From Heterodontus francisci (Eukaryota), in contig NC_090417.1 in assembly GCF_036365525.1 (NCBI RefSeq), forward strand, positions 18,762,900 through 18,826,899: a DNA stretch of 64,000 nt. The letters are read 5' to 3'. The first letter of the stretch is position 1. Every line of letters begins with the position of its first letter. The position numbers and the translations under genes were made by a program. The notes under the pieces are model-generated. The model had not been told where the DNA came from. It did no database searches and was given only the letters and a program-made list of their open reading frames with translations. Shown in pieces: positions 5,700 through 50,392 of the stretch.

Positions 5700-5755
5700 C
5701 TCCAGTTCCTGCCACCCGCAGATCATTGCTGTTCCCTTCATAGGTAAAAAGTGCC
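5700..5755 (-). CDS. DBNL: DBNL exon 2 (ALFTYEGNSNDLRVAGTG), ADF-H domain
   Basis: ttcAG acceptor, GTGAG donor, frame continuous with exons 1 and 3. Confidence 0.95.
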
Positions 5756-13445: not shown

Positions 13446-13593
13446 TGGATGGGCTGAATGGCCTGCTCCTGGATCACAGACCCGGCCCCAGCCCCCACCC
13501 AGAGCCCGGACACAGGCAGAAATCCGAGCTCTCATTCAAATCCTTCTCCCTCGCTGTCCCCATCAATCCCCACCCACCCCTATCTTTGCTCAC

Positions 13594-13676
13594 CAGTCAG
13601 TGGCGATCTTGTCGCTCACCACATCCCGATAGGCGGCCTGCAGCGCCGGCCCGTTGCGACTCAGATTCAAGGCCAT
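13594..13676 (-). CDS. DBNL: Drebrin-like protein, coding exon 1 ([28 protein letters not shown])
   Basis: ATG at 13676, GTGAG donor after 13594; matches recalled DBNL N-terminus [16 protein letters not shown]. Confidence 0.95.
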
Positions 13677-14400
13677 CACCAGCTCAGGGTTCACCACCAG
13701 CAGCACAGACAGAGAGCCCCTTCCGGTCGGTCTGCGCTCAACTGCGCATGCACCCAGCAACCACCCCCCTTCTCAACCGCGCATGCGTCCCACTTCACCA
13801 GCTGAGGTCCAGCTGCGCATGCGTCCCGGCTTCAACCGCCTCGGATTCAACTACGCATGCGTCCCACTCAGCGCCTGCTTGGATCCATTCACGCATTCGC
13901 TTCCTGTCATTGACGATCAAGGTTTTCCCGCCAGCCCATCTGACTTATTGTTGACAATCACGCCTTTCCAATCCTCCCATCCCAGTGACAGACCACAGTT
14001 TCTGCCGGCTGCTCATTGCCAGTCTGCAGAAAGACCACAACATTGTGAAGACAGAATGTCGATGAACAACACAAAGCCAGCACTCGCCTCCCGGCACGTG
14101 GCACCATCTGAGTGACGGCTGCGTCCACCAATGAGAGACCAGATCCCGCCCGGCCTCGCAGCCAATCGGAGCGCGGGAGAGAGATTGACGGATCGTCTCC
14201 TCCAATTAGAAAGCGGCATTGGCGACTGCACAGCCAATCCGCGCAGGCGCGGGAGAGCGGGGCTTTGCAGGGAATCAGGGCGTCGGCGGCGAGGAGGAGC
14301 GGAGTGGAGCGGGGACCTGGCACCGGGTACCAGGTAGGGGCTCAAACTGCTACCCCAGCGCCTGAGGGCCTGGGTGTGGGATTTGATACTTGCCTGGAGG
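13600..14400. promoter_or_regulatory. CpG-rich bidirectional promoter region between DBNL and PIWIL2
   Basis: High CpG density; GCGCATGC-type palindromes at 13743-13862; E2F-like TTTCCCGCC ~13924; CACGTG 14095-14100; CCAAT/ATTGG at 13968, 14128, 14162, 14202, 14218, 14234. Confidence 0.85.
14240..14333 (+). other. PIWIL2: Putative PIWIL2 first (5' UTR) exon; start position approximate
   Basis: CAG|GTAGGG donor at 14333/14334 just downstream of the CCAAT cluster; TSS not determinable from sequence. Confidence 0.6.
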
Positions 14401-14899
14401 GGGGAGGTCAAGGCTGATTGATGGGTTAGGGTTTGAGTCTCTGTGAGGAACGGGCTGGGTTCATCCTGCTGGAGCTGAGCTGGGATGTGGGCGTCGCGGG
14501 GCAAGGCCAGCATTTGCTGCCCATTGCCCTTGACAACTGAGTGACTTGTTGGGCCATTTCAGAGGGCCAAGTGTCAACCACATTGCTGGAGTCACATGCA
14601 GGCCAGACCGGGTAAGGATGGCAGATTTCCTTCCCTAAAGGGCATGAATGAACCAGATGGGTTTTTACGACAATATGTGATGGTGCCATGAAAATGTGAC
14701 TGAGACGAGCCTGATACCTGACCGTGCCAAGGAATGTGAGCCCCTGTTTTAAGTTCATGACGTTGTACCTTTATTTTTCTTGTCTTGCGCCAGTGGGTCT
14801 CAGTGCAGAGAAAGCAGGTTGTGTCTTCAGGTGAACAGATAACGAATTATTCACTTTTTGTTTCATGGTGGATGGAGAAAGTTTGGAGATAGGACATAG

Positions 14900-15700
14900 A
14901 CAATTAACAGATGAAGTGTGAAGCGATTCATTTTGGTTGGAAGAGCATGGAGAGAAAATATAAATTAAAGGGTGTAGTTTCTAAAGGGGGTGCAGAAGCA
15001 GAGTTACTTTGGTGTACATGAGTTATTGAAGGTGGCAGGATCGGTTGAGAGAGCAGTTAATAAAGCATACGGTTCCTCGGCTTTATTAATAGGGGCACAG
15101 AGTACAAGAGGCAGGAAGTCATATTAAACTTGAATAAAACACTAGTTTGGCCTCAAATGGAGTATTGTGCCCAATTCTGGGCGCTGCATTTTTGGAAAGA
15201 CGTGAAGGCATTAGAGAAGTACAGAAAAGATTCATGAGATTGGATCCAGGAATGAGCAACTTCATTTATGAAGACAGATTGGAGAATTTGGGGCTGTTTT
15301 CTTTGGAGAAGAGGAGGCTGAGGGGAGATTTGTAAAGGTTTCACAAAATCATGCAGGGTCTGGACGGATTAGATAGGGAAATATTGTTTCCACTCGTGAA
15401 AGGGTTAAGAACAAGAGGGCGCAGATCCAAGCTAATAGGCAAAAGAAGCAATGGCGCCATGAGGAAATTTTTTTCCATGTAGCACATGGTTGGAATCTGG
15501 ATTGCATTCCCTGAGAGTGGTGGAGGCAGATTCGATCAAGGCATTCAAAAGGGAATTAGATAGTTTTCTGAAAAGGAAGAATCTGCAGGGTTGCAGGGAG
15601 AAGGCAGGGGAATGGTGCTAACTGAATTGTGTACTCGGAGAGCTGATGCAGACACAATGGGCTGAATGGCCCCCTTCTGAGTTGTAACAATTGTGATTCT
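14900..15700 (+). mobile_element. Degraded CR1 3' fragment
   Basis: VQKRFMRL.PGM..YEDRLENLGLFSLEKRRLRGDL. Confidence 0.85.
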
Positions 15701-15974
15701 CTGTTTGACATGACTGACATGGAGCTGAGCTTGGGTCCTCTGAGAAGCAGGCCTTGAAGCAAGAGATTCAGTCCAACAGTGACCACATTTCACAATATTC
15801 CATTGGTTGTGAAGCCATTTGGAACATAAAAACAGAAGTGCTGGAAATACTCAGCAGGTCTGGCAGCAGCTGTGGAGTGAGAAACAGAGTTAGCATTTTA
15901 GGTCTGTGACCCTTCATCAGAACTGGTTTTGAGAATATGCAAGACGTTTGTAGAACATCCTGACGTACCCAACA

Positions 15975-16833
15975 CCATGCATCATTATTTCAGCCGAGAC
16001 ACAAGTTGCTTATCCTAATACTTAGGTGTCCAGGAGTAGCCGAAGACTCGTCCACTGGTTTCCCAACCTGCCTCTGCAGAAGTAACTGGATGGTCTGCGA
16101 CTCAGCAAATAGAAAAGTACTTTTATAGAGCACAGACTTCTCTTGTAGCTGGCGTATGGAGAAGATCACAGTCAATCTGCCTCCAAAAGAACCACTGTGC
16201 TTCCCAGTACACTTGGTCTGCATGTAAATGGAGTCTTTTAAGTGTGACCTGAACAAAGGCCTTCCCCTTGGACATTGCTGTCCTGCAGTTGTTGCAGTCT
16301 CCTCTGTTGCTTTTGATTTTGTTTCGTGTGATGATTTTGGTGTCCCGCATCTCCTGTTAAAAACGGAGCAGAGGAGAAGATCAGGGTGCGGCGATAGATT
16401 GGACTTTCTGTGCTTGAGCAGATTGGCTGGGATTCCGCCCTTGCCCAGTGCCCTTCTGTTTGTTAGGTAGTCAGCGGTTGTCTTTGGCTTCAGTGACGAG
16501 GGTTCTTCATCTAACTCATTCACGACAGGACGTTGTGGGAGAGTGTTCAGTGCAGACTGGGAGAACAGCTCACAGTGGTCTTCAGCCCAGTGTGTCATCT
16601 GTTTCCTTGTGTTGATGAGTATGTCACTGTCACTTCAGGGGAGCAATTTTGGTGATGGCAGGGCCAAGCGCCCTCTTGATCCCTTCATACATACTTTGTA
16701 GATTTCCTTTGTTTGATGCAATTTGGATTTCTTGACATAAGCTGATCCAGTGTTTGTTTGTGCTGTATCTCCCTCTCCTTTGCACGGCTGTTCTGGCTAC
16801 TTTCAGGTCGTGCAGTGTCTTAATGGGTGGGTT
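15975..16833 (-). mobile_element. RTE-clade LINE, inverted 5' segment (continues at 20818-20950 beyond the CR1 insertion)
   Basis: ORFs 15990..16598 and 16630..16836 (HWISLCQEIQ, GKGGIPANLLK, IFSIRQLQEK). Confidence 0.8.
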
Positions 16834-19800
16834 CATAAGATCATAAGATCATAAGAACTGGGAGCAGGAGTAGGCCGTCCGGCCCCTCGAGCCTGCTCCG
16901 CCATTCAATAAGATCATGGCTGATCTTTTCGTGGACTCAGATCCACTTACCCGCGTTCTCACCGTATCCCTTAATTCCTTTTATTATTCAAAAAGATATC
17001 TACCTTAGCTTTAAAAACATTTACTGAAGAAGCATCAACTACTTCACTGGGCAAGGAATTCCATAAATTAACAACCCTCTGGGTGAAGAAGTTCCTTCTT
17101 AATTCAGTCCTAAATCTGCTCCCTCTAATCTTGAGGCTATGCCCTCTTGTCCTAGCTTCACCTGCCAGTGGAAACATCCTCTCTACTTGTATCTTATCTA
17201 TTCCCTTCATAATTTTATATGTTTCTATAAGATCCCCCCTCATTCTTCTGAACTCCAATGAATATAATCCCAATCTACTCAGTCTCTCCTCATAAGCCAA
17301 CCCCCTCAACTCCGGAATCAACCTAGTGAACCTCCTCTGCACCCTCTCCAGTGCCAGTACATCCTTTCTCAAGTAAGGAGACCAAAACTGCACACAGTAC
17401 TCCAGGTGCGGCCTCACCAGTACCTGAGACAGCTGCAACATAACCTCTCTGCTTTTAAACTCAATCCCTTTAGCAATGAAGGACAAAATTCCATTTGCCT
17501 TCCTAATTACTTGCTGTACCTGCAGACCAACCTTCTGCGATTCATGCACAAGGACACCTTGGTCCCTCTGCATAGCAGCATGCTGCAACTTTTTACCATT
17601 CAAGTAATAATCCTTTTTACTGATACTCTGACCGAAATGAATGACTTCACATTTATTAACATTGTATTCCATCTGCCAGACCTTTGCCCACTCACTCAAT
17701 GTTCCTCTGCAAAGTTTCACAGTCATCTGCACACTTTGCTCTGCCACTCATCTTAGTGTCATCTGCAAACTTTGACACCCTACACGTGGTCCCCAACTCC
17801 AAATCATCTATATAAATTGTAAATAATTGCGGTCCCAACACCGATCCCTGAGGCACACCACTGGTGACTGATTGCCAACCAGAATAACACTCATTTATCC
17901 CCACTCTCTGCTTCCTGTTAGTCAACCAATCCTCTATCCATGCTAATACTTTACCCCTGACGCCATGCATCCTTATCTTGTGCAGCAGCCTCTTGTGCGG
18001 CACCTTGTCGAAGGCCTTTTGGAAATCTAGGTACACAACATCCACTGGGTCCCCATTGTCCACCTTGCTCGTAATGTCATCATCGAATTCCAAAAGATTT
18101 GTCAAGCATGACCTGCCCTTCATGAACCCATGCTGCGTCTGCCCAACGGGACAATTTCTATCGCGATGCCCTGCTATTTCTTCCTTGATAATAGACTCAA
18201 GCATCTTCCCCACTACAGAGGTTAAGCTAACCGGTCTATAATTCCCCATCTTTTGTCTACCTCCCTTTTTAAACAGTGGCGTCACATCTGCTGTTTTCCA
18301 ATCTGCTGGGACTACCCCAGAGTCCAGCGAATTTTGGAAAATTACCGCCAGTGCACCTGCTATTTCTCCCGCCATCTCTTTTAGTACCCTGGGATGCATT
18401 CCATCAGGGCCAGGAGACTTATCAATCCTTAGCTCCATTAGCTTGCCCAACACTACCTCTTCCGTAATAATAATTGTTCCCAGGTCCTCACCTACGTTCG
18501 TCTCTTTGTCAATTACTGGCATGTTATTAATGTCCTCCACTGAGAAGACCGATACAAAATACCTGTTCAATGCTTCGGCCATTTCATCATATCCCATAAC
18601 TAAATTCCCCTTCTCATCCTCTAAAGAACCAACGTTTACTTTAGCCACTCTTTTTCGTTTTATATATTTATAGAAACTTTTGCTATCTGTCTTTATATTC
18701 TGTGCTAGTTTTTTCTCCTGTTCTATCTTACTTTTCTTTCTAGCTCTTTGTGTGGCTTTCTGTCGACCTTTAAAGTTTTCCCAATCTTCTAGTTTCATGC
18801 TGCTTTTGGCCACTTTGTCTGCCTTTTTCAATTTGATAGCCTCCCTCATTTCCTTAGACACCCATGGCAGATTACCCCTTTTCTTCCAGTCCTTCCTTTT
18901 CACTGGAATATACTTTTGCTGAGCACTTTGAAAAATTGCTTTGAAAGTCCTCCATTGCTCGTCAACTGTCCCACCGTAAAATCTTTGTTTCCAGTCTACT
19001 TTAGCCAAGTCCTCCCTCATTCTATTGTAGTCCCCCTTGTTCAAGCGCAGGACCCTGGTATTGGATTTTATCTTCACACTCTCCATCTGTATTCTAAATT
19101 CAACCATACTGTGATCACTCCTTCCAAGAGGATCCCTATATATGAGGTCATTAATTATTCCTGTCTCATTACACAGTACTAGATCTAGGATAGCTTGCTC
19201 CCTCTGTTAATCGAAGTTATTTTTTGCCTTCGGTCTGGTTCAGTAAATATACCGAGTCTGATGTGTAGGTAAAATCAATTACTTTATTTGCGCAGTTGCC
19301 AGCGGACTTACTCTGAGAACAGCGGCACTGACTCCACCAGAGTCTGTCGGGTCCCCCCCAGATTAAGTGAAGTTTGTGATACAGGTACTACTGTTTATAC
19401 ATTAAGATTCATGCTACACCTCCTTGTTTAACCAATCAGTGCGGTACAATTCGACTTCACCCACGTGGTGACATGCAGTACATCTGTTACTGAGGTTAAC
19501 AATACACTCCATTCTCAATACATACTTGTTACTAATAAAATATTGTTTTGTACCAGCAAGCTAAAACAAAGCGGACAAGCAAACTAATTAGCAAGAGCAT
19601 AGGAATCATCAATAACCATGCTGGTCTCACTCCCTACATGGATCATGAGTCTGTCTCTACCTTGTGACAAGTAATTGCGGCGCATCCTGCGATCTCTATT
19701 AGGTGTACATTCCTGAGTGTTTCGTGCAGTCTGCAGCTACATCAAGTAGTGGCAGTTCACGAAGATAAGAGGGGCCTAGCACTCCTTATCACTCACACAG

Positions 19801-20817
19801 GGATGGACATCATTTGATTCATATGAGTCCATCTGCTTCAAACCACAGGGAGTCATGCACTCAGGCCATAAAGAACAGATGTCCTGGCAATTACCAATGT
19901 CGGCTAGTCTTTACTGTCTCACACTTCCAGCTTTTACTTTTAACTATCTCATTGTGGTTTGTGCCACTTAAAATCAAAGCTCAGCAAAGCTATTATTCCT
20001 AACTTGGCTATTTTTCCCATTACGTATAGTGCCATGCCTTTCTGCTCACTTCCACACCTCGTCAGTTCCATTACATACTGTTCAAGAAAACTATCACGGA
20101 TACACTCAACGAACTCCTCCTCAAGGCTACCCTGACTGAGCTGGTTCGACCAATCTACATGTAGATTAAAATCCCCCATGATAATTGTCGTACCATTTTT
20201 ACAGGCATTAGTTATTTCTTTGTTTATTGCCCGCCCCAATGTGATGTTATTATTTGGTGGCCTATAAACTACGCCTATCAATGACTTTTTCTTCTTCGAG
20301 TTTCTAATTTCCACCCAAATGGATTCAACCTCATTCTCCATAGAACCTATATCATCTCTCAGCACCGCCCTGATGTCGTCCTTGAATATCAGAGCTACAC
20401 CACCTCCCTTACCTTCCTGTCTGTCCTTCCGAATAGTCTGGTACCCCTGGATATTTAACTCCCAGTTGTGACCAACCTGTAACCATGTCTCCGTAATGGC
20501 TACCAAATCATATTCATTCGCGATGATTTGTGCCGTTAACTCATCAACCTTGTTACGAATGCTACAAGCATTCAGGTAAAGTGCCTTTATGCTAGCTTTC
20601 TTACCCTCATGATTCCCAACATCTCTAATAATAACTCCTGACTTATCCTTCCTTTCTGCTTCTTTCATCGTCTGCCTTGAACCTAAACCCTCCTGCACAC
20701 GTTAGCCTGCAGCTTACCTTTTTATTTATCATCATACTCCCTGTCATTTTCCCTTTCCCTTCCCCCTGAGTCACTAGTTTAAAGTCCTAGAGACCACCCT
20801 ATTTATCCGTTTCGCTA
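16834..20817 (-). mobile_element. CR1 LINE with near-complete ORF2 (endonuclease + RT), interrupted by a solo LTR
   Basis: ORFs 19949..20698 (EN: AITETW, GGGVA, GDFN), 17692..19107 and 16971..17747 (RT); (ATCTTATG)n tail at 16834. Confidence 0.96.
19205..20056 (-). mobile_element. Solo LTR (852 bp)
   Basis: TG...CA termini, CCTC target-site duplication (19201-19204, 20057-20060), splits CR1 ORF2; minus-strand TATAAA 19399-19394 and AATAAA 19288-19283. Confidence 0.85.
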
Positions 20818-20954
20818 GGGTTTATGTTGTGCATCATGTAGGCTTTGCTTTATGTGGCAATGACAGATAACTCAGCTGAGTAAGTCTCAACCCAGCCCTT
20901 GTTGCAGATTCCGCCTTTGCCAAATGATGCTTCTGCTGCTTCATAAATGAAGCT

Positions 20955-21540
20955 ACCTGGAAAAGAAGCTCAATAATTTCCATCTGTGCTGTGTGTTGCA
21001 CCTTTTGGGTATATCCTGGTCGGACAAAATCACATGTGACAGTCCTCTCAAAGCCAGAGCTCCCAAGTGTGACACTGATGAAACAGAGGTGGCTTTGGAG
21101 GATCGGATGTGTCTGCAGGATGGAAGATGGTCACATACCCAAGGACCTTTTGTATGGTGAGGTCATCAGGGCCAGACCAATGAGAGGCCCAAAGCACCAC
21201 TTCAAGGCTGCTTGCAAGCATGACAGGAAGGCCTTAAATGTTGACCACCACACTTTGGGAGTCACTAGCTGGCGAAAGAGGGAAATGGCGACGCATCCTG
21301 TGGACTGGTATGCACTACCATGATGACAAGTTGCCACAACAGCTTGTCAACGGGTGTTAATGTCAAAAGCAAGAACTCACAGCGTCACCTGGCTGCTTTA
21401 TGTGCAGCACTAGTGATAGGACCTGCCTCTCAAGGAATGGCCTTCACATCCATCAGCAAAGGTGCACCAAGAGAAGACAGCCCACTGAAATGCATTGTTT
21501 CTTGCGTGTCCATCATGTTTCGTAGGTGGAAGGATGTCAA
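20955..21540 (+). mobile_element. RTE-clade LINE 3' segment
   Basis: ORF 20991..21323 (R.IG.VCRMEDGHIPKDLLYGE) typical of the RTE C-terminus. Confidence 0.85.
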
Positions 21541-22490
21541 CCTGAGCAGAGACCAGCCTCTTTCAGTAACATGGGCTCTGATATCTTGCTTTGGGAGTTT
21601 TTCCAATTAAGAGCAGACGCAATCTCGAATGTTCCCTTCAGTGGTATCTGGAAGAAGTCTCTGTTTACCAACAGGAATGGAAGGCTATATCATACATAAT
21701 TTTCACCCACAGTTACCTTGATTTCTTGTGATAAAGGAAATGCAAAGGACACGTAATTTGACACAAGTAAAACCCAGTTGGTAAAACAATGAAGCCCTAC
21801 CTGTGCCAACATGTATTTGAGTGAGAAGTTGGGATGTGGAATGCGCTGTCTGAGAGTGTGGTGGAGGCAGATTCAACCCAGGCTTTCACAAGAGAACTGG
21901 ATAATTATCTGAAGAGAAATTTGTAGGGCTACGGGAAAAAGGCAAGGGAGTGGGACGAGCTGAATTGCTCTTGCAGAGAGCTGCTATGGACTTGATGGGC
22001 CGAATTGTTACGACACAGAAAGAGACCATTCTACGTGGGATCCCATACTGAGCCGGTACTTTGGGTGGCCAACAATACAGGAGAAACAAAGCTTTTGAAA
22101 GCCCAGGCACCACAGAACGTTGAGAGGAGAACAATGTCGATACAGTGAAGGCACCAGTGACCCACAGAAGCAGAGTTATTCTTTGCCTTCACACAGTCAT
22201 AGCAGCGAGTATAAAGTGAATACAGAAGCAAATTGGATGTGTTCTTGACTAGGAAAATGTTGCTCCACTACAGGGGAAGTGAACTCTTTCAGGCATAGTT
22301 GATTGAATGATCTCCTTCTGTGCTGTACCATTGTATGCACATTGTATACCACTGCAGTAAGGAGTATCGTCGGCTCTTCAAATGAGGCCATATGGGTAGA
22401 ACTTAAAAACAAAAAAGGGGCAATCACTTGGCTGGGTGTCTACTACAGGCCTCCAAACAGTCAGGGAGAGATGGAGGAGCAGATATGTAG

Positions 22491-22705
22491 ATTAGATTAG
22501 ATTAGATTAGAGATACAGCACTGAAACAGGCCCTTCGGCCCACCGAGTCTGTGCCGAACATCAACCACCCATTTATTCTAATCCTACACTAATCCCATAT
22601 TCCTACCAAACATCCCCACCTGTCCCTATATTTCCCTACCACCTACCTACACTAGTGACAATTTATAATGGCCAATTTACCTATCAACCTGCAAGTCTTT
22701 TGGCT
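22491..22705 (-). mobile_element. 5'-truncated HE1-type V-SINE
   Basis: (CTAAT)n tail; TGTAG duplication at 22486 and 22706; identity to full copies. Confidence 0.85.
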
Positions 22706-24541
22706 TGTAGGCAAATGTCAGAGGTGTAAAAATAACAGGGTAATAATAGTCAGGGATTTCAACTTCCCCAATATCAACTGGGATAGTCTTAGTGCAAAAG
22801 GCTTAAAGGGGGCGAAATTCTTAAAATGCATACAGGAGAGCTTTTTCTGCCAGTACGTAGATAATCCTACAAGAGAAGTGGCAGTACTGGACCTAATCCG
22901 AGGGAATGAAGCTGGACAAGTGGGAGAGGTGTCAGTGAGGGAGCATTTCAGGGATAGTGACTATAAATCTGTAAGATTTAAAGTGGTTATGGAAAATGAC
23001 AAAGATGGTCCGGAAATAAAGGTACTGAATTGGGGGAAGGCCGATTTCAATATGATAAAACAGGATCTGGCCAAAATGGACTGGGAGCAGCTACTTGTAA
23101 GAAAGTCCACATCAGACCAGTGGGAGTCATTTAAAGAGGAAATAGTGAGAGTTCAGGGCCAACATGTACCTGTTAAGGTGAAGGGTAGGACCAACAAGTC
23201 CAGGGAACCCTGGATGTCAAGGGATATCGAGGATTGGATCAAGAAAAAAATGGAGGCTTATGGCAGATTCAGAGCACTGAAAACAGCAGAGGCACTGGAA
23301 GAGCATGGAAAGTGTAGGGGGGTACTGAAATAGTAATGAGGAGAACGAAGAGGGGACATGAAAAAAACACTGGCGGGCAAGATCAAGGAAAATCCTAAGG
23401 CGTTTTATAAGTCTATTAAGGGCAAGAGAATAACCAGGGAAAGAGGAGGGCCCATTAGGGACCAAAGCGGCAATGTGTGTGTGGAGCCGGAGGACATAGG
23501 TGAGGTTTTAAATGATTACTTTTCATCTGTGTTCACTATGGAGAAGGACAATGTTGGTGTAGAGATCAGGGAGGGGGATTGTGAGAAACTTGAACATTGA
23601 AAGGGAGGAAGTATTAGCTGTTTTAGTGGGCTTAAAAGTGGATAAATCCCCAGGCCCAGATGAGATGTATCCTAAGCTACTATGTGAGGCAAGGGAGGAG
23701 ATAGCAGGGGCTCTGACACAAATTTTCAAATCTTGTCTGACCACAGGAGAGGTACCAGAGGACTGGAGGACAGCGAATCTGGTACCATCATTTAAGAAGG
23801 GTAGCAGGGATAAACCAGGCCGGTGAGTCTAACATCAGTTGTTGGGAAAATATTGGAAAAAGTTCTGAGGGACAGGATTAATCTCCAGTTGGAGAGGCAG
23901 GGATTAATCGGGGATAGTCAGCATGGCTTTGTCAGGGAGAGATCGTGTCTAACGAACTTGATTGAATTTTCCGAGGCAGTGACGAGATGTGTAGATGAGG
24001 GTAAAGCAGTTGATGAAGTATACATGGACTTCAGTAAGGCTTTTGAGAAGGTCCCGCATGGGAGATTGGTTAAGAAGGTAAGAGCCCATAGGATCCAGGT
24101 CAAGTTGGCAAATTGGATGCAAAATTGGCTTCGTGGCAGGAAGCAGAGGGTGATGGTCGAGGGTTGTTTTGGTGAGTGGAAGCCTGTGACCAGTGGTGTA
24201 CTGCAGGGATCGGTACTGGGACCCTTGCTGTTTGTAGTGTACATTAATGATTTAGACATGAATATAGGAGGTATGATCAATAGGTTCGCAGATGACAAAA
24301 ATTAATGGTGTCGTAAATAGTGAGGAGAAAAGCCTTCGATTGCAGGACAATATAGATGGGCTGGTAAGATGGGTGGAGCTGTGGCAAATGGAATTTAATC
24401 CTGAGAAGTGCGAGGTGATGCATTTTGGGAGGACTAACAAAGGAAGGGAATATACAATGGATGGTAGGACCCTAGGAAGTACAGAGGGACCTTGGTGTAC
24501 TTGTCCATAGATCACTATAGGCAACAGCACAGGTAGATAAG

Positions 24542-24900
24542 GTTTAGTTTAGTTTAGTTTAGAGATACAGCACTGAAACAGGCCCTTCGGCCCACCGAGT
24601 CTGTGCTGACCATCAACCACCCATTTATACTAATCCTACACTAATCCCATATTCCTACCACATCCCCACCTGTCCCTATATTTTCCCTACCACCTCCCTA
24701 TACTAGGGGCAATTTCTAATTGCCAATTTACCTATCAGCCTGCAAGTCTTTGGCATGTGGGAGGAAACCGGAGCACCCGGAGGAAACCCACGCAGACACA
24801 GGGAGAACTTGCAAACTCCACACAGGCAGTACCCGGAATTGAACCCGGGTCCCTGGAGCTGTGAGGCTGCGGTGCTAACCACTGCGCCACTGTGCCGCCC
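24542..24900 (-). mobile_element. Full-length HE1-type V-SINE
   Basis: tRNA head GGGCGGCACAGTGGCGCAGTGGTTAGC, V-domain GGGTTTCCTCCGGGTGCTCCGGTTTCCTCCCACA, (CTAAA)n tail. Confidence 0.9.
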
Positions 24901-26159
24901 TCGGTGTTTAGGAAAGCATAGAAACAGAGAAAATAGGAGCTGGAGTAGGGCATTCGGCCTTTCGAGCCTGCTCCGCCATTCATTATGATCATGGCTGATC
25001 ATCCAACTCAGTAACATGTTCTGGATTTCCCCTCCCCCCCCATATCCTTTGATCCCTTTCACCCCAAGAGCTATATCTAACTCCTTCTTGAAAATATACA
25101 ATGTTAAAGAGAGAGGGGGGGAGAGATACTTGCCTTTGTTAGCCAAGACACAGAATACAAGAGCAGGGAGGTTATGATGGATCTGTATAAAACGCTAGTT
25201 AGGCCACAGCTGGTGTACTGTGTACAGTTCTGGGAACCACACTATCGGAAGGATGTGATTGCACTGGAGAGGATGCAGAGGAGATTCACCAGGATGTTGC
25301 CTGGGCTGCAGCATTTCAGCTATGAAGAGAGACTGGATAGGCTGGGGTTGTTTTCCTCAGAGCAGAGAAGGCTGAGGGGGGACATGATTGAGGTATACAA
25401 AATTATGAGGGGCTTTGATAGGTTAGATAGGAAGGAACTTTTTCCCTTAGCGGGGGATTCAGTAACCATGGGCATAGATTTAAGGTCAGGGGCAGGAGGT
25501 TTAGAGGGGTTTTGAGGAAAAAGCTTTTCACTCAGAGGTGGTTGCAATCTGGAACACACTGCCTGAAGAGTTGGTAGAGGCAGAAACCCTCAACATTTAC
25601 GAAGTATTTAGATGAGCACTTGAAACACCATCGCATACAAGGTTATGGGCCAAGTGCTGGAAAATGGGGTTAGAATAGTTGGGTGCTTGATAACCGACAC
25701 AGACACGATGGGCCAAAGGGCCTGTTTCTGTGCTGTATAACTCTGTGATTCTATGAACTGGAGGATACGTGTCTGTCACACCAACGTGCTTTGTTGAAGG
25801 ATAATTTTTCTAATCCACTGACTGTAGATCTGAATTTATATTTTTAAAGTAATTTAAAAAGGAACAGCTGAAATGTGACTTTGTTAGTGGCTTAAGGTGG
25901 CCACCTAATGTGCAATACTGTGTCCTATATTGCAAGGCCTGTGGTGGAGACAAAATGTCTGATCATCCCAGCAAGAACCAGGAAATTTTAGCGAACTGCT
26001 TGTTCTCTTTTGCAAGAAGAAATACACTGCCAATGACCATGCTTGAATCACTGGGTGACTATCATGTGACAAGCCCACATCTGTGGTTTTAAGCTGGTTT
26101 TTCTCTACAACAGGTTAAGAAGCATCTGGATTCTGACGCTTGCAGACTTAAGTGGGGGT

Positions 26160-26236
26160 CTCTCTCTGTTTCGCTGTCTCGCTGTCTCTCTGTCTCGCTG
26201 TCTCGCTGTCTCTCTCTCTCTCTCTCTCTCTCTGTC
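26160..26236. repeat. (TC)n / (TCTCGCTG)n compound microsatellite
   Basis: Direct reading. Confidence 0.9.
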
Positions 26237-26600
26237 TGCGATAGCCAAACCAGATAATCTAGTTTGCTGTTTAATGAGGGAGCTCCTCTGCTCTTTTGCA
26301 CCCAATTGAGAGGGCAGCCGGGACCTTGGTTTAATGTGTCATTTGATAGATGGCATCTCTGAGTCCAGCACTCCTTCATTACTGGCAGTGGGAGTGTCAG
26401 CCTGCATTATGAGCTGTGTCTCTGGAGTGGGACTCGAACCCATGATTTTGTGCCTCAGGCAAAAGTACTACTGACTTAACCACGGCTGACAAAAATAATC
26501 CAGAACTGGTCAAAACATAGCACATACGAAACACTGGGATGTTATAAAATGAACTGATAGTGAGTGTGCCTTGTTTCACAGGTGCTGCCCCGTGTACTAC

Positions 26601-26819
26601 ATGTCCGATCGGGCTAGTTTTCCTTGCCGAGGTGGCCTGCCTCGTACAGCTCTCGATCCCCAATTCCCTGGACCTTGGCAGCAGCCAGTGCCAGTATCGG
26701 GAGCAGACTTGGCGCGAGGGAGAACGTTTCCAAGTCTACGACCCCCGAGGTCCGAGTCAGTGCAATATGTCCCACAGCAAGCCGTGCAGCTCCCAGCAAA
26801 TCCCGGACTGAGCTATCTG
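26601..26819 (+). CDS. PIWIL2: PIWIL2 exon 2 coding part (MSDRASFPCRGG...PGLSYL); acceptor before 26582
   Basis: tttcacAG acceptor, GTACGT donor, phase 0 into next exon; low-complexity N-terminus. Confidence 0.75.
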
Positions 26820-28959: not shown

Positions 28960-29041
28960 CCACTGGGTCGTTCAGCCGGGCTGGTCCGAGGTCTTGCCTC
29001 GCTACCGCAGTTCGAAACGTATGGACGAGGAGATCACTTCG
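28960..29041 (+). CDS. PIWIL2: PIWIL2 exon 3 (PLGRSAGLVRGLASLPQFETYGRGDHF), GC donor
   Basis: Strong pyrimidine tract plus cAG; G|GCAAGT donor gives the phase 1 needed by exon 4. Confidence 0.75.
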
Positions 29042-34088: not shown

Positions 34089-34215
34089 GAAGAGGACTCT
34101 TGGGTAGAGGAATATCCAGCGACCTGTTCGGAGTGATTAAACATGAAGGGGGTGAGGCAGCCGGCGATGCCTTTCCAACAAGAGCAGCAATGCCATGGAG
34201 CTATGAACAAGGCAG
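34089..34215 (+). CDS. PIWIL2: PIWIL2 exon 4 (GRGLLGRGISSDLFG...)
   Basis: cAG/GTAAG boundaries; GRGxLGRG motif as recalled for PIWIL2. Confidence 0.88.
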
Positions 34216-34269
34216 GTAAGGACAGTTGTAAGACCAGCAATCTGTTCCTGTCACTGAACAAGTATCTAG

Positions 34270-34590
34270 ATGTTAAGTTTCAGTTATTCAGGGCATTGAT
34301 GAGACCACATCTTGAATACTGTGTGCAGTTTTGGTCTCCTTATTTAAGGAAGGATGTAAATGTGGTGGAGGCAGTTCAGAGGAGGTTTATGAGATTGATA
34401 GCTGGAATGAGCAGGTTGTCTTACGAGTAAAGGTTGGATGAACTGAGCTTTATTTCACTGGAGTTTAGAAGAGTGAGGGGAGACTTGATTTAATTATATA
34501 TGATCCTGAACGGTATTGACAAGGTGGATGTGGAGAGGATGTTTCCTCTTGTGGGTGAGTCCAGAATTAGGGGGCACAGTTTGAAAATGG
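34270..34590 (+). mobile_element. CR1 fragment
   Basis: LMRPHLEYCVQFWSPYLRKD. Confidence 0.8.
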
Positions 34591-35599
34591 TCGATTTCTC
34601 CTAATTTGTATGCTTCAGCTACTGAGAGTTGTAGATAGTAGAGTCTCCCATGTCTCATGACACAATGAGGCAACCCATTTCTTCTGTCTGTCCAGACTAA
34701 TTTGATGACATCAGATTATCTCCGTGCCTTTCATCTGTCGTTGATGTTGATATTTTTTTCAGTCGATTGCAGACTTGCCTTGTCTTTGGACTACCTCAGC
34801 AGCCAAACTAATTTTTACCTTCAAAGGGTGTTAGCCTGACTTGTAGCCCCTGAATACCCTTGGATTTCCTTGAGTCTGGCTACTACCAGGAGTAGTACAG
34901 TGCCAGTGCAGCTCAAAGCAGCTTGCAAGCCTTCCCACCATGTCAAGGTTCAGTTCTGAGGGATCTTTGTAGCCACAGACTGAGTTCCAGACAGGCTGCC
35001 TCCTGCTCACATTGCCTGGGTGGGAAAGTTTTTGTTACGTGATTGTAGAAATTGCAGGAACTCCTTTCCCAGCAGGTAGCTGCTTCGCAGAGGTGGGTTG
35101 GACTGTCTGCCCTGCCTACAGGATGAAATGAAGTCCAGCTTCAAGCAGTCGCCCTGTGCAGTGAGACTGCATGGTGGTGCCAAACCAAACGCTGTTCAGT
35201 ACCTGCACCTGCGAAAGATGATGAGAAAAGACTGTTGGGTCGTCTGTGCCGAATGCCCCTTCCCAATGACTGCTATTGCACTAAATCCTGCATTGGGAAC
35301 TCTCTAAGGCAGATTTGGATTAATTTAAGGCAATGAAGGAAGCTCTTGGAGACAAAAAAATAAAAACAGACATTGCTGGAAATACTCAGCAGGTCAGACA
35401 GCATCTGTGTAGAGAGAAGCAGAGTTATCATTTCAGGTCTGTGACCTTTAATCAGTTCTTGAAGACCATGGTTATCCAGGACACGTCACTAGACGTGCAT
35501 AAACTGTGCCGAACCTTCATAGATCCCAGTTTCCTTTGGGGCTTAGAATGTTAACAGCCAGACAAATTTTAAAGGGGACTTGTACTTTGGTACCTATCA

Positions 35600-35831
35600 G
35601 TCGGCTGGCGTGCCTTGTCCCTGCTGGTCGGCTGGCGTGCCTTGTCCCTGCTGGTCGGCTGGCGTGCCTTGTCCCTGCTGGTCGGCTGGCGTGCCTTGTC
35701 CCTGCTGGTCGGCTGGCGTGCCTTGTCCCTGCTGGTCGGCTGGCGTGCCTTGTCCCTGCTGGTCGGCTGGCGTGCCTTGTCCCTGCTGGTCGGCTGGCGT
35801 GCCTTGTCCCTGCTGGTCGGCTGGCGTGCCT
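35600..35831. repeat. 27-bp minisatellite, ~8.6 perfect copies
   Basis: Unit gtcggctggcgtgccttgtccctgctg. Confidence 0.97.
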
Positions 35832-35869
35832 GTTCTCATGGTTGCTCCTTTGTTGGTTTCAGGAAAACA

Positions 35870-36330
35870 TCGGTATTAGGAGCAGGAGTAGGCCACTGGA
35901 GCCTCCTCCGCCATTCCACAAGATCCTGGCTGATTTGATGGTAACCTCCACTCGATATTCCTGCCTACTCCCGATAACCTTTCCCCCCCTTGCTTATCAA
36001 GAATTCTGTCCACCTCTGCCTTAAAAATATTCAAAGACTCTGCTTCCACTGCCTTTTGAGGAAGAGAATTCCAAAGACCCACGTCCGAGAGAAAAAATTT
36101 CTCATCATCTCTGTCTTAAATGAGCGACGCTTTATTTTTAAACAGTGATCTCTAGTTCTACATTATCCCACAAGAGGAAACATCCTTTCCACATGCACCC
36201 GACCAAGATCCCTCAAGATCGCTCAGGATCTTGTAGGCTTGAATCAAGTTGCCTCCTCTTCTAAATTCCAACCCTTCCTCATAAGACGACCTGCCCATTC
36301 CAATTAGTCAAGTAAACCTTTTCTGAACTG
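35870..36330 (-). mobile_element. CR1 3' fragment (same subfamily as 62825-63310)
   Basis: LWNSLPQKAVEAESLNIFKAEVDR. Confidence 0.85.
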
Positions 36331-37249
36331 CTTCCAAGAAAAACAAAGACTTGCATTTGTACCACACCTTTCACATCCTCAAGAGGTCCCAAAGTGTTTT
36401 CCCACCAATGAGGTACTTTCTGAAGTGTAGTCACTGTTGGAATGTAGGAAACATGGCAGCCAGTTTGCGCATAGCAAGATCCACAAAGAGCAATGTGATG
36501 ATGAGAAAATCTGTTCAGTGATGTTGGTTCAGTGATCAAGGTTGGTCAGGACACCTGAGAGAACTCAAAATCATGCTGAAGAATCTTTGACATCCATCTG
36601 AGAGCAAATAGGGTCTCAAATTATTATTTTTTTTCCACATGAAGGCACCTCTGAGTGCCGTACTTGCTCAGTAGTGCACTGAGGGTGTTGGCCTTGAGTT
36701 TCGAGTTTGGCTTGAAGCCATGATCTTCTGTCTGAGAGAGGTGAGAGTTCAGCCCAGTGAGGTCAGATTGTACACAACTTGGATGTACTGTAGCCAACGT
36801 GTGCTGCTCGGGATTTGTGATTCGCTGTGGTTCGGAGTGAGCGTGAATGCTGCAGAAGCATGGTGGGACAATGCAACAGCATCTCCCTGCAGTGTGAAGG
36901 AAAGTCAGAGTGAGGGTTGTCTGGGGAGACTGTAGACACTTGTGAGCGGCTTGTTAGTTTGGGAGCACTGTCAACATCAGTCCCAGGGCGAAGTGTACGA
37001 AAGGTCTAAAGCTGGTGAATGATTTCATGGGAAAATGACTGAACTTGAAGAACAGAACAGTTCACAACTTAAAACATTTGTGTGCACACATGAGATCATG
37101 CCACAAACTTAAATATAAACTTTAATCAATTGCTGTATTAAGTCTCTCATTCAGTTGTTAGGTGGTGATATTCTATCCCAGTTAGAGAGTTACGTGTATA
37201 ATTTTGCATAATTGTTAGAAACATTGCAATCTTTATGACACATCGTGAT

Positions 37250-37720
37250 GTGCAGGCCAAAAAAGAGCTATCCAGCCTAATCCCACCTTCCAGCTCAAGC
37301 TCTTTAGATTACAGCATTTCAAGTGCATATCGATGTACTTGTTCAAAGTAATGAGAGTTTCTGCCTCTTCCACCCTTTCAGGCAGTGAGTTTGAGATCTC
37401 CATCACCCTGTGCATGAAAGAATTTCTCCTCCGCTCCCCTCTAATCCTTTGATCAGTTACTTGAAATCAGTGCCTCCCTGGCTCTTGACCTCTTTGCTGA
37501 GGGGAATAGGTCCTTCCTCTTCACTCTATATTGGCCCCTCATTAATTTATATACCTCAATTAAATATACCCTCGGCCTCCTATGTTCCAACGAAAGCAAA
37601 TCTAGCCGATTCAATCTTTGCTCATCGCTAAAATGTTCTGTTCTGGGTGTTATCCTGGTAAATCTCTTCTGTACCCTCTCTAGCCTGATCACATCCTTCT
37701 TGTAATGGGGTGTTACAGAA
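37250..37720 (-). mobile_element. Old CR1 3' fragment abutting the PIWIL2 exon 5 acceptor
   Basis: ORF 37453..37692 LERVQKRFTR. Confidence 0.8.
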
Positions 37721-37736
37721 TCTGTTCTCCACCCAG

Positions 37737-37940
37737 CAGTTTTCGAGGTAGAGGGACAGTTCCCGAGTCTTCACCCTCCAGCACTGAGGAACTTGCCAAC
37801 CAAGTGAAGGGATTGGAGTTAGGACGAGCATCACTGGGGAGAAGCAGAGTTTTTCACCCTTCGGCAGTACTTAAACCTGGAGACGGGAGGTTCGTTCTTG
37901 GCAAGGCCATCACTGGAGCTGTGGAAGAAGAAAATCGAGG
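37737..37940 (+). CDS. PIWIL2: PIWIL2 exon 5 (SFRGRGTVPESS...AVEEENRG)
   Basis: CAGCAG acceptor, GTGAGT donor, phase 2-2 joins exons 4 and 6; RG/GRA motifs. Confidence 0.82.
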
Positions 37941-37978
37941 GTGAGTCAGTGGAATGGAGCATTCTGTGCAGATGTAGA

Positions 37979-38199
37979 CTGCCTCGCCGCGCACGGTGGG
38001 TTTCTGGGCTCCCTCGCCGCGCACGGTGGGTGTCTGGGCTTCCTCGCCGCGCACGGTGGGTGTCTGGGCTTCCTCGCCGCGCACGGTGGGTGTCTGGGCT
38101 GCCTCGCCGCGCACGGTGGGTGTCTGGGCTGCCTCGCCGCGCACGGTGGGTGTCTGGGCTGCCTCGCCGCGCACGGTGGGTGTCTGGGCTGCCTCGCCG
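37979..38199. repeat. 30-bp CpG-rich minisatellite, ~7.3 copies, followed by a G-rich tract
   Basis: Unit gcctcgccgcgcacggtgggtgtctgggct. Confidence 0.97.
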
Positions 38200-38910
38200 G
38201 GGTGGGGGGGAGCGGGGTGGTGGATGGAACCAGGGCTGCTTCACTGCATGCTTCGGGGTGGGGGTGTGTGGGGGGCTGGGCTGCCTCGTCGCGTGGGTTG
38301 GGCAGCTGGGTGGCGGGGATCTGTACTGCCGCACAATCAGTGGGGTTGGTGGGGTGTGGCCAGGGGAGTGGGCGGTGGTTGTGTGGGTGGGGAGAATCTG
38401 GGCTGGCTCGCCGCTCACGGTTGTTCGCTTCACCAGGTTTCCTGACTGGTGATTGCAGCCTCTAGCTGTGCATTTTGAGAGCCAGCAGTGTTACCAGTAC
38501 ATTAAAACACAATGGAACAGCAGCTTAACATGAGCTCAGTCCCAGGCTCAATACTTGCCAGCCAGCCAGTGTCAGCTGGAATTCAGTGTTTGTACCGTGA
38601 GTTACGTGGAATTTACCACACAGAAACAAGTCTTTCATCCCGACTGTTCTCTGCTGGTGTTGATATTTCACATGAGCCTGCTCCCATCTTACTTCACCCA
38701 ATAAGCATATACTTAAATTGCTTTCTCCCTTTTCTATTTATGTGTGCTATTTGCCTCAACCACTCCCTGTGGGAGCAAGTTCCACATTCTCACCACTCTG
38801 TGGATAAAGAAGTTTCTCCTGAGTTCCCTATTGGATTTATTCGCGACTGTCTTCTATTTATGGCCCCTCGTTTGGACTTCCTCACAAGTGGAAACATCTT
38901 CTCCACCTCA

Positions 38911-40640
38911 CAACTGTCCTCCACAAATATCCCCATCCTCAATGATGGGGGAGCCCAGCACATCAGTGTGAAAGATAAGGCTGAATCATTTGCAACAATC
39001 TTCAGCCAGAAGTGCCCAGTTGATGATTCATCTCGGCCTCCTCCTGAAGTCGCCAACATCACAGATGCCAGACTTCAGCCAATTCGATTCATTCCGCGTG
39101 ATATCAAGAAACGACTGAAGGCACTGGATACGACAAAGGCTATGGGCCCTGACAATATTCCAGCAATAGTACTGAAGACCTGTGCTCCAAACTTGCCGCA
39201 CCCCTAGCCAAGCTGTTTCAGTACATCTATAACACTGGCATCTACCTGGCAATGTGGACAAAAAGCAGGACAAGTCCAACCCGGCCGATTACCGCTCCAT
39301 CAGCCTACTCTGAATTATCAGTAAAGCGATCGCAAGTGTTGTCAACAGTGCCATCAAGTGGCACTTGCTTAGCAATAACCTGCTCAGTGACGCTCAGTTT
39401 GGGTTCCACCAGCGCCACTGAGCTCCTGACCTCATTACAGCCTTGGTTCAAACATGGACAGAAGAGCTGAACTGGTGAGGTGAGAGTGACTGCCCTTGAC
39501 ATCAAGGCAGCATTTGAGCAAGTATGGCATCAAGGAGCCTGAGGAGAACTGGAGTCAATGGGAATCAGGGGGAAAACTCTGCGCTGGTTGGAGTCCTATC
39601 AAGTGCAAATGAAGATTGTTGTGGTTGGAGGTCAATCATCTGAGCTCCAGGACATCACTACAGGAGTTCCTCAGAGTAGTGTCCTTGGCCCAACCATCTT
39701 CAGCTGCTTCATCAATGACCTTCCTTCAATCATAAGGTCAGAAGTGGGGATGTTCGCTGATGGTTGCACAATGTTCAGCACCATTCGTGACTCCTCAGAT
39801 ACTGAAGCAGACCCTGTAGGAATGCAGCAAGACCTGGACAATATCCAGGCTTGGGCTGATAAGTGGCAAGTAACATTAGCGCCACACAAGTGCCAGGCAA
39901 TGACCATCTCCAACAAAAGAGAATCTAACCATCTCCCCTTGACGTTCAATGGCATTACCATCGCTGAATCCCCCACTATCAACATCCTGGGGGTTACCAG
40001 TGACCAGAAACTCAACTGGAGTAGCCATATAAATACAGTGGCTACAAGAGCAGGTCAAAGACTAGGAAACCCATGGCAAGTAACTCACCTCCTGTGTCCC
40101 CAAAGCCTGTCCACTGTCTACAAGGCACAAGTCAGGAGTGTGATGGAATACTCTCCACTTGCCTGGATGAGTGCAGCTCCAACAATGCTTAAGAAGCTCG
40201 ACACCGTCCAGGACAAAGCAGCCCGCTTGATTGGCACCCCATCCACAAACATTCACTCCCTCCACCACCGAAGCACAATGGAAGCAGTGTGTACCATCTA
40301 CAAGATTCACTGCAGCTAAGCAGCTTAGACAGCACCTTCCAAACCCGCAACCTCTACTGCCTAGAAGGACAAGGGCAGCAGATGCATGGGAACACCAACA
40401 CCGACAAGTTCCCCTCCAAGCCACACACCAGCCTGATTTGGAACGATATCGTCGTTGATGCACTGTCGCTGGGTCAGAATCCTGGAACTCGCTTCCTAAC
40501 AGCACTGTGGGTGTACCTACACCACACGGACTGCAGCGGTTCAAGAAGGCAGCTCACCACCACCTTCTCAAGGGCAATTAGGAATGGGCAATAAATGCTG
40601 GCCTGGCCAGCGACACCCACATCCCTGGAACGAAAAAAAA
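38911..40640 (+). mobile_element. Second CR1/L2-group LINE family, RT and 3' UTR
   Basis: KAMGPDNIP, GVPQSSVLGP, FADG, WADKWQV, YKAQVRSVMEY. Confidence 0.88.
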
Positions 40641-40755
40641 ACTCATTCTTTGGGGAATTATTCTGGTGACTTCCTTCACCGATGGCTGCTGGATACTTCA
40701 GGCTAATGGACCGTAGCTTAATTTGAAGATGTCTTTCACTGCTCAGTTGTGTTAA

Positions 40756-40980
<225 letters not shown>

Positions 40981-41682: not shown

Positions 41683-41934
<252 letters not shown>

Positions 41935-44130: not shown

Positions 44131-44629
44131 TATTATAACTGTTTAATGTTTCTATGAGTAAGTTTATGACTGAAAAGTCCATCTCGAGCACTCTGAAGAG
44201 AACCTCTTCGATTCTGATGTGTAACAGTGATATCAATGTGGTTTGTGGGAAATTTCCTCTTCAGTATTTTGACCAAAATCTTAAAACGTGTCCTGAAACT
44301 TTCATGCTGGTTGGGATTTGGTCCATGTTTTGAACTTGGAATGAAAGGCAGCACTTATAAAACGCTGTTTTTCTCTCAACCCTACCCAATCTGTTGCTAC
44401 ACATCAATTTTCAAAACAGTGTTATCATTAAGAAAAATAATTTTCATTGCTGCTTTGCATTCTGGAGATACATGTCCATGGAGTCAGCGAATGATTACGT
44501 CGTATTGATCCCAGGGATCAGAAAGTCTTTCGGTTTTGAAATAACGGGAGAGAAAATTGTTCATGTATCTAAATTTCAGTGTTAAGTCAAGAGCCTTCAG
44601 TATTATTGGCAAATAATATCTCAAGTTGT

Positions 44630-45296: not shown

Positions 45297-45422
<126 letters not shown>

Positions 45423-46799: not shown

Positions 46800-46979
<180 letters not shown>

Positions 46980-48070: not shown

Positions 48071-48205
<135 letters not shown>

Positions 48206-49634: not shown

Positions 49635-50392
<758 letters not shown>

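What the first reader, a model, noticed from the sequence alone, without database searches (positions are those of the whole stretch)
13594..14333. PIWIL2 and DBNL head-to-head on one ~0.65-kb CpG-rich promoter
Seen: the DBNL ATG (13676, -) and the putative PIWIL2 exon-1 donor (14333, +) are 657 bp apart. Known: DBNL is a broadly expressed actin adaptor; PIWIL2 is a germline piRNA effector whose promoter is usually silenced in soma; the two genes are on different chromosomes in human. Inference: an island that must stay open for DBNL cannot simply be methylated, so either PIWIL2 is somatically expressed in this lineage or it is repressed directionally.
Basis: partly seen in the sequence, partly recalled or inferred. 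Interest (0 to 1): 0.7.

Follow-up and report, generated by a model that had tools for sequence, protein, structure and literature searches.

The report
Shark PIWIL2 shares DBNL's CpG island
In the horn shark the transposon-defence gene PIWIL2 starts about 600 bases from the cytoskeleton gene DBNL inside one CpG island whose two halves carry different motifs, likely two back-to-back promoters with the PIWIL2 half held low by DNA-binding repressors, and one run also shows an upstream gene spliced in frame into PIWIL2 across 169 kb.

Summary
DBNL exon 1 (13676-13594, -) and a PIWIL2 first exon ending at 14333 (+) lie back to back in the only promoter-like CpG island I found in the window. The island is not uniform. 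It has four tandem NRF1-type sites on the DBNL side, a 170-bp low-CpG spacer, and five CCAAT boxes, three E2F-type GCGGGA and one E-box on the PIWIL2 side. That pair of motifs marks PRC1.6-repressed mouse germline genes. Near-full-length PIWIL2 mRNA assembles at low depth in 3 of 4 runs of unrecorded tissue. In one run it begins instead at ASPDH exon 5, 168,647 bases upstream, in frame and across two antisense genes; its share is unknown. DBNL and PIWIL2 share a contig in 17 species, with consecutive accessions in 3 of 12. Best reading: a new member of the known head-to-head CpG-island kind, likely repressed on one side and leaky. Binding, methylation and tissue are untested. The scan's earlier notes showed nothing on this locus.

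The parts
13594..13676 (-). DBNL exon 1, coding part (ATG at 13676, GT donor after 13594)
   Evidence: spliced to exon 2 in X3
5700..5755 (-). DBNL exon 2 (further exons near 4630-4515, 3925-3851, 3185-3039, 1602-1525, 861-709; the gene ends at C47:18744868, outside the window)
13450..14500 (.). CpG island spanning both first exons (GC 0.61, o/e 0.68; core 13594-14333 o/e 0.85)
13738..13868 (.). DBNL-side module: four 22-nt copies at 35, 36, 38 bp spacing, each with an NRF1-type GCGCATGC/CGCATGCG core; one ETS-type CCGGAAG (-) at 13720; local o/e 1.06. Factor names are recalled consensus labels
   Evidence: (CGCATGCG 3 vs 0.04 expected, 0 of 2000 shuffles, 0 elsewhere in the window)
13911..14080 (.). 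low-CpG spacer (GC 0.49, o/e 0.51) with one CCAAT and one GCGGGA
14081..14260 (+). PIWIL2-side module: CACGTG at 14095; CCAAT at 14128, 14162, 14202, 14218(-), 14234; GCGGGA at 14144(-), 14173, 14249; o/e 0.97 for 14081-14333; no TATAAA
   Evidence: (over 13594-14333: CCAAT 6 vs 1.40, 4 of 2000; GCGGGA 4 vs 0.66, 8 of 2000; CACGTG 1 vs 0.21, 390 of 2000)
14278..14333 (+). PIWIL2 exon 1, the part covered by the X3 contig (true 5' end unknown); donor CCAG|GTAGGG
14334..26581 (+). PIWIL2 intron 1, 12,248 bases, repeat-rich
26582..26819 (+). PIWIL2 exon 2 with ATG at 26601; its acceptor takes exon 1 (X3) and ASPDH exon 5 at G000:C47:18620607-18620833 (X1)
28960..29041 (+). PIWIL2 exon 3; a GC donor after 29041 keeps a 974-aa frame (5' end read, 3' end inferred from homology)
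34089..63665 (+). PIWIL2 exons 4-17; the gene continues to C47:18866137

Best explanation
DBNL and PIWIL2 start back to back in one CpG island whose two halves carry different motifs and likely act as two separate promoters, with the PIWIL2 half likely held low outside the germline by DNA-binding repressors rather than by methylation of the whole island. Shown: the geometry, the 14333>26582 splice, the two motif modules, and near-full-length PIWIL2 mRNA at low contig depth. Inferred step 1: NRF1-type sites (methylation-sensitive, recalled) and an ETS site keep the DBNL half open and fire leftward. Inferred step 2: the CCAAT cluster is the PIWIL2 promoter; the X3 contig begins 44 bases after the start of the last box. 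Inferred step 3: GCGGGA sites between the CCAAT boxes, plus the E-box, recruit E2F6 and MGA/MAX (PRC1.6-type) in somatic cells. Because the open DBNL half lies about 260 bases away, silencing would be leaky. Separately, one run shows ASPDH exon 5 spliced to PIWIL2 exon 2. This is likely occasional read-through: PIWIL2 is the next plus-strand gene found, its exon 2 offers the first known acceptor, and the in-frame exon-5 junction would escape nonsense-mediated decay.
For: Modules are segregated: NRF1-type cores only in 13721-13910, CCAAT x5, GCGGGA x3 and CACGTG only in 14081-14333. In 7 other CpG-rich windows of the fetched 427 kb (mostly repeats, so a weak control) there was no NRF1 core, no E-box and one GCGGGA. 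[quoted passage not shown] Piwil2 is listed as an L3MBTL2/RING1B target (PMC12435664, passages). GCGGGA is the motif of E2F6-dependent PRC1.6 sites (PMC5806899, passages). PIWIL2 contigs have depth 18.3, 15.3, 8.3 and 3.9 (a 188-nt fragment) against 1348 for the X1 DBNL contig (the tool warns contig depth cannot rank genes, so this is weak). Read-through: the junction lies exactly on the ASPDH exon-5 donor, which occurs once in 6.0 Gb. The contig starts with exactly 30 ASPDH letters, as a fork from exon 6 (which starts with T) would give at k=31 (assembler behaviour recalled). Both genes found in between (ARID5-like, DBNL) are on the minus strand. Only 2 of 6 ASPDH donors are in frame, and the one used is one of them.
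Against: No binding, methylation, strand, start site or tissue was measured. The single E-box is at chance level (390 of 2000 shuffles). The GCGGGA and CCAAT excesses (8 and 4 of 2000) come from 16 motifs tested, and the four NRF1 sites are tandem copies, not independent events. CCAAT plus E2F sites also mark activated, cell-cycle-type promoters (recalled), so these sites need not repress. In X1 one contig runs from spliced DBNL across the whole island to 14304, so RNA is not confined to two tidy starts. A review calls the PRC1.6-to-methylation relay likely a mammalian innovation (PMC12435664). Germline promoters are methylated targets in all seven vertebrates of PMC8941758 (passages). The ASPDH junction was read in 1 of 3 near-full-length contigs, and a 142-kb gene-to-gene gap is far beyond the <30 kb of validated human cases (PMC4450057).
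Confidence: 0.55

Rival explanations
1. Half-island methylation: the PIWIL2 module (14081-14333) is methylated in soma while NRF1-type binding and the low-CpG spacer protect the DBNL module. This may follow PRC1.6 binding, as in mouse, so it is not exclusive with the best reading.
For: Two CpG-dense blocks (o/e 1.06 and 0.97) are separated by a 170-bp block of o/e 0.51. Germline CpG-rich promoters are conserved methylation targets in mammals and chicken (PMC8941758). Mouse Piwil2 is methylation-regulated (PMC8639735). High CpG content only requires that the germline be unmethylated (established).
Against: The blocks lie within about two nucleosomes of each other. Exon-1-spliced PIWIL2 mRNA is present in X3 and likely X2, and RNA covers the PIWIL2 module in X1; their tissue is unknown.
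Confidence: 0.25
2. One shared bidirectional promoter drives real somatic PIWIL2 expression, so sharks run a somatic piRNA/PIWIL2 programme.
For: Near-full-length spliced PIWIL2 contigs (3.0-3.8 kb) in 3 of 4 runs. Intact 974-aa frame. NRF1 and CCAAT motifs are typical of bidirectional promoters (PMC4730256, passages). The adjacency appears kept in sharks and rays.
Against: Depth is low and not far above intronic bins (0-6). Piwi genes are gonad-biased, with only sporadic low somatic expression across vertebrates (PMC8574217 section 14). The motifs are segregated, not central. All four runs are one sample.
Confidence: 0.15
3. For the ASPDH junction only: it comes from a heterozygous ~169-kb deletion or other rearrangement in the sequenced animal, from trans-splicing, or from template switching during library making, not from read-through.
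For: Distance and two intervening genes are atypical for read-through. Donor and acceptor share CAG|GT. It was read in one run only. The two introns are oddly alike in length (12,295 and 12,248).
Against: The introns share no direct-orientation repeat: 5 hits, all inverted, 67-84%. X3, from the same sample, uses the normal exon 1. The order ASPDH, one locus, DBNL recurs in bamboo shark locus numbers GCC38362/GCC38364, which supports the assembly. The genes share only CCAG before the junction, too little for a graph chimera.
Confidence: 0.35

Closest known systems
Head-to-head (bidirectional) CpG-island gene pairs of vertebrates (review PMC4730256, passages read; the <1 kb definition is recalled)
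   Same: Divergent first exons within 1 kb, one CpG island, no TATA box, NRF1-type and CCAAT motifs.
   Different: The motifs sit in two separate blocks with a low-CpG spacer. The partners are expected to differ in tissue range rather than be co-expressed (expectation from other vertebrates, not measured here).
PRC1.6/methylation-repressed germline genome-defence promoters of mouse (Dazl, Ddx4, Mael, Mov10l1, Piwil2; PMC8639735, PMC12435664, PMC5806899, passages read)
   Same: Same gene, CpG-island promoter, E2F-type TCCCGC and E-box CACGTG motifs.
   Different: Cartilaginous fish; the island is shared with a broadly expressed gene; binding and methylation unknown. Mammalian germline genes paired head-to-head with other genes (STAG3/GPC2, SMC1B/RIBC2, ZCWPW1/MEPCE) are recalled; one search did not confirm the pairing.
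[quoted passage not shown]
   Same: [quoted passage not shown]
   Different: 142-kb gene-to-gene gap rather than <30 kb, two antisense genes between, third-to-last rather than second-to-last 5' exon. It works like cis-SAGe but is not filed as a member.

Membership tests
Head-to-head CpG-island gene pair | Two genes on opposite strands, 5' ends facing | tested here: met
Head-to-head CpG-island gene pair | 5' ends within about 1 kb (definition recalled) | tested here: met
   DBNL ATG to start of the X3 PIWIL2 contig is 602 bases; exact start sites not readable from contigs
Head-to-head CpG-island gene pair | CpG island, TATA-less, NRF1/CCAAT motifs | tested here: met
   GC 0.61, o/e 0.85, 0 TATAAA, NRF1-type x4, CCAAT x6
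Head-to-head CpG-island gene pair | Shared elements drive both directions (co-regulation) | not testable with these tools
   needs a reporter or CAGE; motif segregation argues for two cores
PRC1.6-repressed germline genome-defence promoter | E2F motif TCCCGC/GCGGGA near the start | tested here: met
   3 in 14081-14333 and 1 in the spacer; 4 vs 0.66 expected, 8 of 2000 shuffles, 16 motifs tested
PRC1.6-repressed germline genome-defence promoter | E-box CACGTG near the start | tested here: inconclusive
   present at 14095 but at chance level, 390 of 2000
PRC1.6-repressed germline genome-defence promoter | Bound by MGA/MAX, E2F6, PCGF6; methylated after implantation | not testable with these tools
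   no chromatin or methylation data
PRC1.6-repressed germline genome-defence promoter | Silent or near silent in soma, high in germline | tested here: inconclusive
   low-depth contigs in 4 runs of unrecorded tissue
cis-SAGe read-through chimera (ASPDH-PIWIL2) | Same-strand genes, exact exon-exon junction into exon 2 | tested here: met
cis-SAGe read-through chimera (ASPDH-PIWIL2) | Immediate neighbours within 30 kb | tested here: not met
   142,388 bases from ASPDH stop to PIWIL2 exon 1, two minus-strand genes between
cis-SAGe read-through chimera (ASPDH-PIWIL2) | [quoted passage not shown] | tested here: not met
   exon 5 of 7; exon 6 would be out of frame
cis-SAGe read-through chimera (ASPDH-PIWIL2) | No genomic deletion; intergenic transcript present | not testable with these tools
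   no DNA run laid; indirect only

The most novel reading that the evidence does not exclude
Sharks bypass the repressed PIWIL2 promoter in ASPDH-expressing somatic tissue. A 250-kb transcription unit starting at ASPDH splices over two antisense genes and the shared island, and yields an in-frame 1201-aa ASPDH(1-220)-PIWIL2 protein with PAZ and PIWI domains intact. This would be a regulated second route to a somatic piRNA effector in a 6-Gb repeat-rich genome.
Probability: 0.07. Interest if true: 0.8.

Novelty: new member of a known kind. Interest (0 to 1): 0.45.

Why it matters
The locus is a natural split test of how a germline defence gene is kept off when its CpG island cannot be shut as a whole. 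Activating motifs for the housekeeping gene and candidate E2F6/MGA motifs for PIWIL2 lie in separate blocks of one 650-base island. If PRC1.6-type motifs repress PIWIL2 here, motif-directed germline repression of this gene predates bony vertebrates, which bears on the open question of when the PRC1.6-to-methylation relay arose. The ASPDH junction also warns that somatic PIWIL2 signal in shark RNA-seq may come from read-through. The public model for this species lacks 134 N-terminal residues, which a GC-AG intron restores.

Tried and rejected
No RNA holder was on record for the stretch; the runs are guessed RNA, though their contigs are spliced. Organism B runs X5 and X6 laid nothing on exon 2 at 80% likeness, which is no evidence either way. 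A separate promoter next to exon 2: rejected for the three long contigs, which all leave 26579 for an upstream exon. My first guess that X2 also used the ASPDH exon, from its equal 27-letter overhang: dropped after depth bookkeeping. Fusion by recombination between intron repeats: no direct repeats. Annotated ASPDH-PIWIL2 fusion proteins: none in 35 PIWIL2-set or 128 ASPDH-set proteins; only the best 120 of 660 longer ASPDH hits were listed. PGAM gene between ASPDH and DBNL (recalled human neighbour): no C47 match among 27 candidates scored. Plus-strand genes between ASPDH and DBNL: 374 unmasked ORFs of at least 45 aa scanned, with no plus-strand Pfam hit over cut-off. About 62% of the fetched region was masked, and 450 of 713 listed ORFs were scanned in all, so a gene could be missed. 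Metagenome scan with DBNL: 25 loci, none with PIWIL2 or ASPDH similarity; the one locus holding a fish-like exon 1 has no PIWIL2 hit in 6.3 kb upstream. Apparent Piwi expansion on C31 and C5: these are Argonaute-subfamily genes. T-box, Sp1, YY1, MYB and TATA motifs were not enriched. Literature: piwil2+dbnl gave 1 listing, a pig GWAS, not read; aspdh+piwil2 gave 0; searches gave no paper on this pair. Figures and supplements of PMC8574217 (Fig. S5, an image) and PMC5381642 (Fig. 5; supplements unavailable) could not be seen and may already draw DBNL beside Piwil2 in elephant shark.

Full report
Source. The window is G000:C47:18762900-18826899 of a 6.0-Gb assembly, and 13500-14500 matched once. 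Protein searches returned 100% matches named for Heterodontus francisci on a contig of the same length as C47.

Observation. 13676-13594 (-) encodes the first 28 residues of DBNL and ends at a GT donor. The annotated protein maps in 15 exon hits down to C47:18744868. PIWIL2 lies on the plus strand. Exon 2 is 26582-26819 with the ATG at 26601, conserved in other sharks and rays, and the gene ends at C47:18866137. With a GC donor after 29041 the frame is 974 aa and 76-89% identical end to end to four full-length orthologues. The GT donor at 29045 stops at residue 108, and the public model is 840 aa. The GC donor is inferred, not read. The span 13594-14333 has GC 0.61 and CpG o/e 0.85 against 0.36 for the window.

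RNA. Four runs of one sample (guessed RNA, assembled contigs, tissue not on record) were laid on 12900-27300. PIWIL2 contigs of 3760, 3768 and 3032 nt in X1, X2 and X3 match exon 2 and continue 5' for 27, 27 and 53 letters not on the intron; X4 has a 188-nt piece only. Laying X1, X3, X5 and X6 on 26495-26845 read two of these overhangs. X3's matches 14301-14330 exactly, confirming the predicted 14333>26582 splice. X2's was not read. The bin 13862-14342 leaves 399-427 depth-letters unexplained, and its overhang would add 413; the same sum works for X3 (432-453 vs 441) and leaves no room in X1. So exon 1 is read once and inferred once. X1 also holds a 1575-nt contig that covers 13593-14304; its other 863 letters lie off the laid stretch and are taken as spliced DBNL exons. 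A DBNL mRNA starting that far out would carry 13 upstream ATGs, so this is more likely minor upstream starts or overlapping RNA of either strand. Contigs give no strand, start or level.

The unexpected junction. X1's overhang is absent from the window and occurs once in the genome, at C47:18620804-18620830 (+). It is the 3' end of exon 5 of 7 of ASPDH. The joined intron would be 168,647 bases. The junction is in frame and gives 1201 aa; of six ASPDH donors only exons 2 and 5 would be in frame. Between the genes lie an ARID5-like gene and DBNL, both on the minus strand, and large tandem arrays. No plus-strand gene was found in 374 unmasked ORFs, a test limited by masking. The share of this junction is unknown. 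Assemblers prune short dead ends (recalled), so a 56-base exon-1 tip could have been removed in X1 in favour of a rare connected path. The fusion would cut the Asp_DH_C domain about halfway (profile 3-47 of 89), which argues against a working ASPDH part. No annotated fusion was found. The two introns share no direct repeat. Validated human cis-SAGe pairs lie within 30 kb and mostly enter exon 2 (PMC4450057, abstract and passages); this case meets the second rule and fails the first.

Promoter anatomy. The island has three blocks. 13721-13910 (o/e 1.06) holds four 22-nt copies at 35-38 bp spacing with an NRF1-type core; CGCATGCG occurs 3 times against 0.04 expected and nowhere else in the window. 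13911-14080 is a spacer (GC 0.49, o/e 0.51). 14081-14333 (o/e 0.97) holds five CCAAT boxes, three GCGGGA and one CACGTG. Over 13594-14333, 4, 8 and 390 of 2000 shuffles reached the CCAAT, GCGGGA and CACGTG counts. Sixteen motifs were tested and the factor names are consensus labels. An ATG at 14131, part of a CCAAT box, is in frame with PIWIL2 without a stop; it lies upstream of the X3 contig start and is likely chance.

Mechanism. [quoted passage not shown] The shark PIWIL2 half has the same pair while the DBNL half has neither. I therefore favour two back-to-back promoters with motif-directed, leaky repression of the PIWIL2 half (0.55). Methylation of that half alone (0.25) and true somatic co-expression (0.15) remain open. 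Germline promoters are methylated in all seven species of PMC8941758 (passages). Piwi genes show only sporadic low somatic expression in PMC8574217 (passages and section 14). PMC5004792 (abstract and start of text) concerns chicken Piwil1 and was not used.

Conservation. No other vertebrate genome is held, so the evidence is indirect. DBNL and PIWIL2 proteins carry the same longest-contig length in 17 species where both were seen, 16 cartilaginous fishes and one caecilian. Accessions of both were visible in 12. They are consecutive in 3 (Chiloscyllium plagiosum, Scyliorhinus torazame, Mustelus asterias), within 10 in 3 (Narcine, Mobula hypostoma, C. punctatum) and farther apart in 6, including this species, where the genes are adjacent, so the test misses true cases. 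In S. torazame the two are consecutive loci on a 132-kb scaffold. Orientation and spacing elsewhere are untested. Two papers report that the gene upstream of Piwil2 differs between lineages, and PMC8574217 that Slc39a14 stays downstream (PMC8574217; PMC5381642, passages). SLC39A14 is downstream here too. The arrangement therefore looks chondrichthyan, not general.

Novelty. Searches for piwil2+dbnl and aspdh+piwil2 found no paper on these pairs. The synteny figures of the two papers above could not be seen and may show DBNL. The scan's earlier notes gave nothing near this window, no note with the word PIWIL2 and none on this junction among the 8 shown of 177. Head-to-head CpG-island pairs and PRC1.6-type germline promoters are known kinds, and this is a new member with a clean split layout. 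Interest 0.45. The bold reading, a regulated ASPDH-driven route to somatic PIWIL2, rests on one contig (0.07).

Noticed in passing
G000:C47:18620833 > window 26582: In-frame ASPDH exon 5 to PIWIL2 exon 2 splice over 168,647 bases in run X1.
   Followed up: partly
window 29041/34089 and 51698: PIWIL2 appears to use two GC-AG introns. The public 840-aa model for this species lacks the 134 N-terminal residues that the first one restores.
   Followed up: partly
G000:C47:18623918-18633057: ASPDH intron 5 is mostly a 34-bp array of about 269 copies ending about 70 bases before the exon 6 acceptor; it might favour exon skipping.
   Followed up: no
G000:C47:18639624-18655619 (-): ARID5-like gene between ASPDH and DBNL, with a 624-aa last-exon frame; its 5' end was not located.
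   Followed up: partly
G000:C47:18670259-18729458: Three giant tandem arrays of 21 kb (34-mer), 7.6 kb (15-mer) and 22.7 kb (27-mer) between the ARID exons and DBNL.
   Followed up: no
G000:C47:18897000-18918000: SLC39A14 exons occur twice around the 200-N gap at 18907370 (7.7 kb at 96.9%), likely a false duplication in the assembly or a tandem copy.
   Followed up: partly
P0132 (Narcine bancroftii): PIWIL2 is annotated as a 1503-aa fusion with the downstream SLC39A14 zinc transporter, which suggests read-through on the 3' side in that ray.
   Followed up: no
window 37990-38200: A GC-rich 30-bp tandem repeat just after a PIWIL2 donor gives a false CpG-island signal.
   Followed up: yes
G000:C31:35.35-35.68 Mb and C5:32.9 Mb: Piwi-domain loci that looked like an expansion are Argonaute-subfamily genes, fitting the known AGO cluster and a separate AGO.
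   Followed up: yes
P0308 (Scyliorhinus canicula): At least four RefSeq accessions encode the same PIWIL2 protein, implying several UTR forms; their first exons could not be seen.
   Followed up: no
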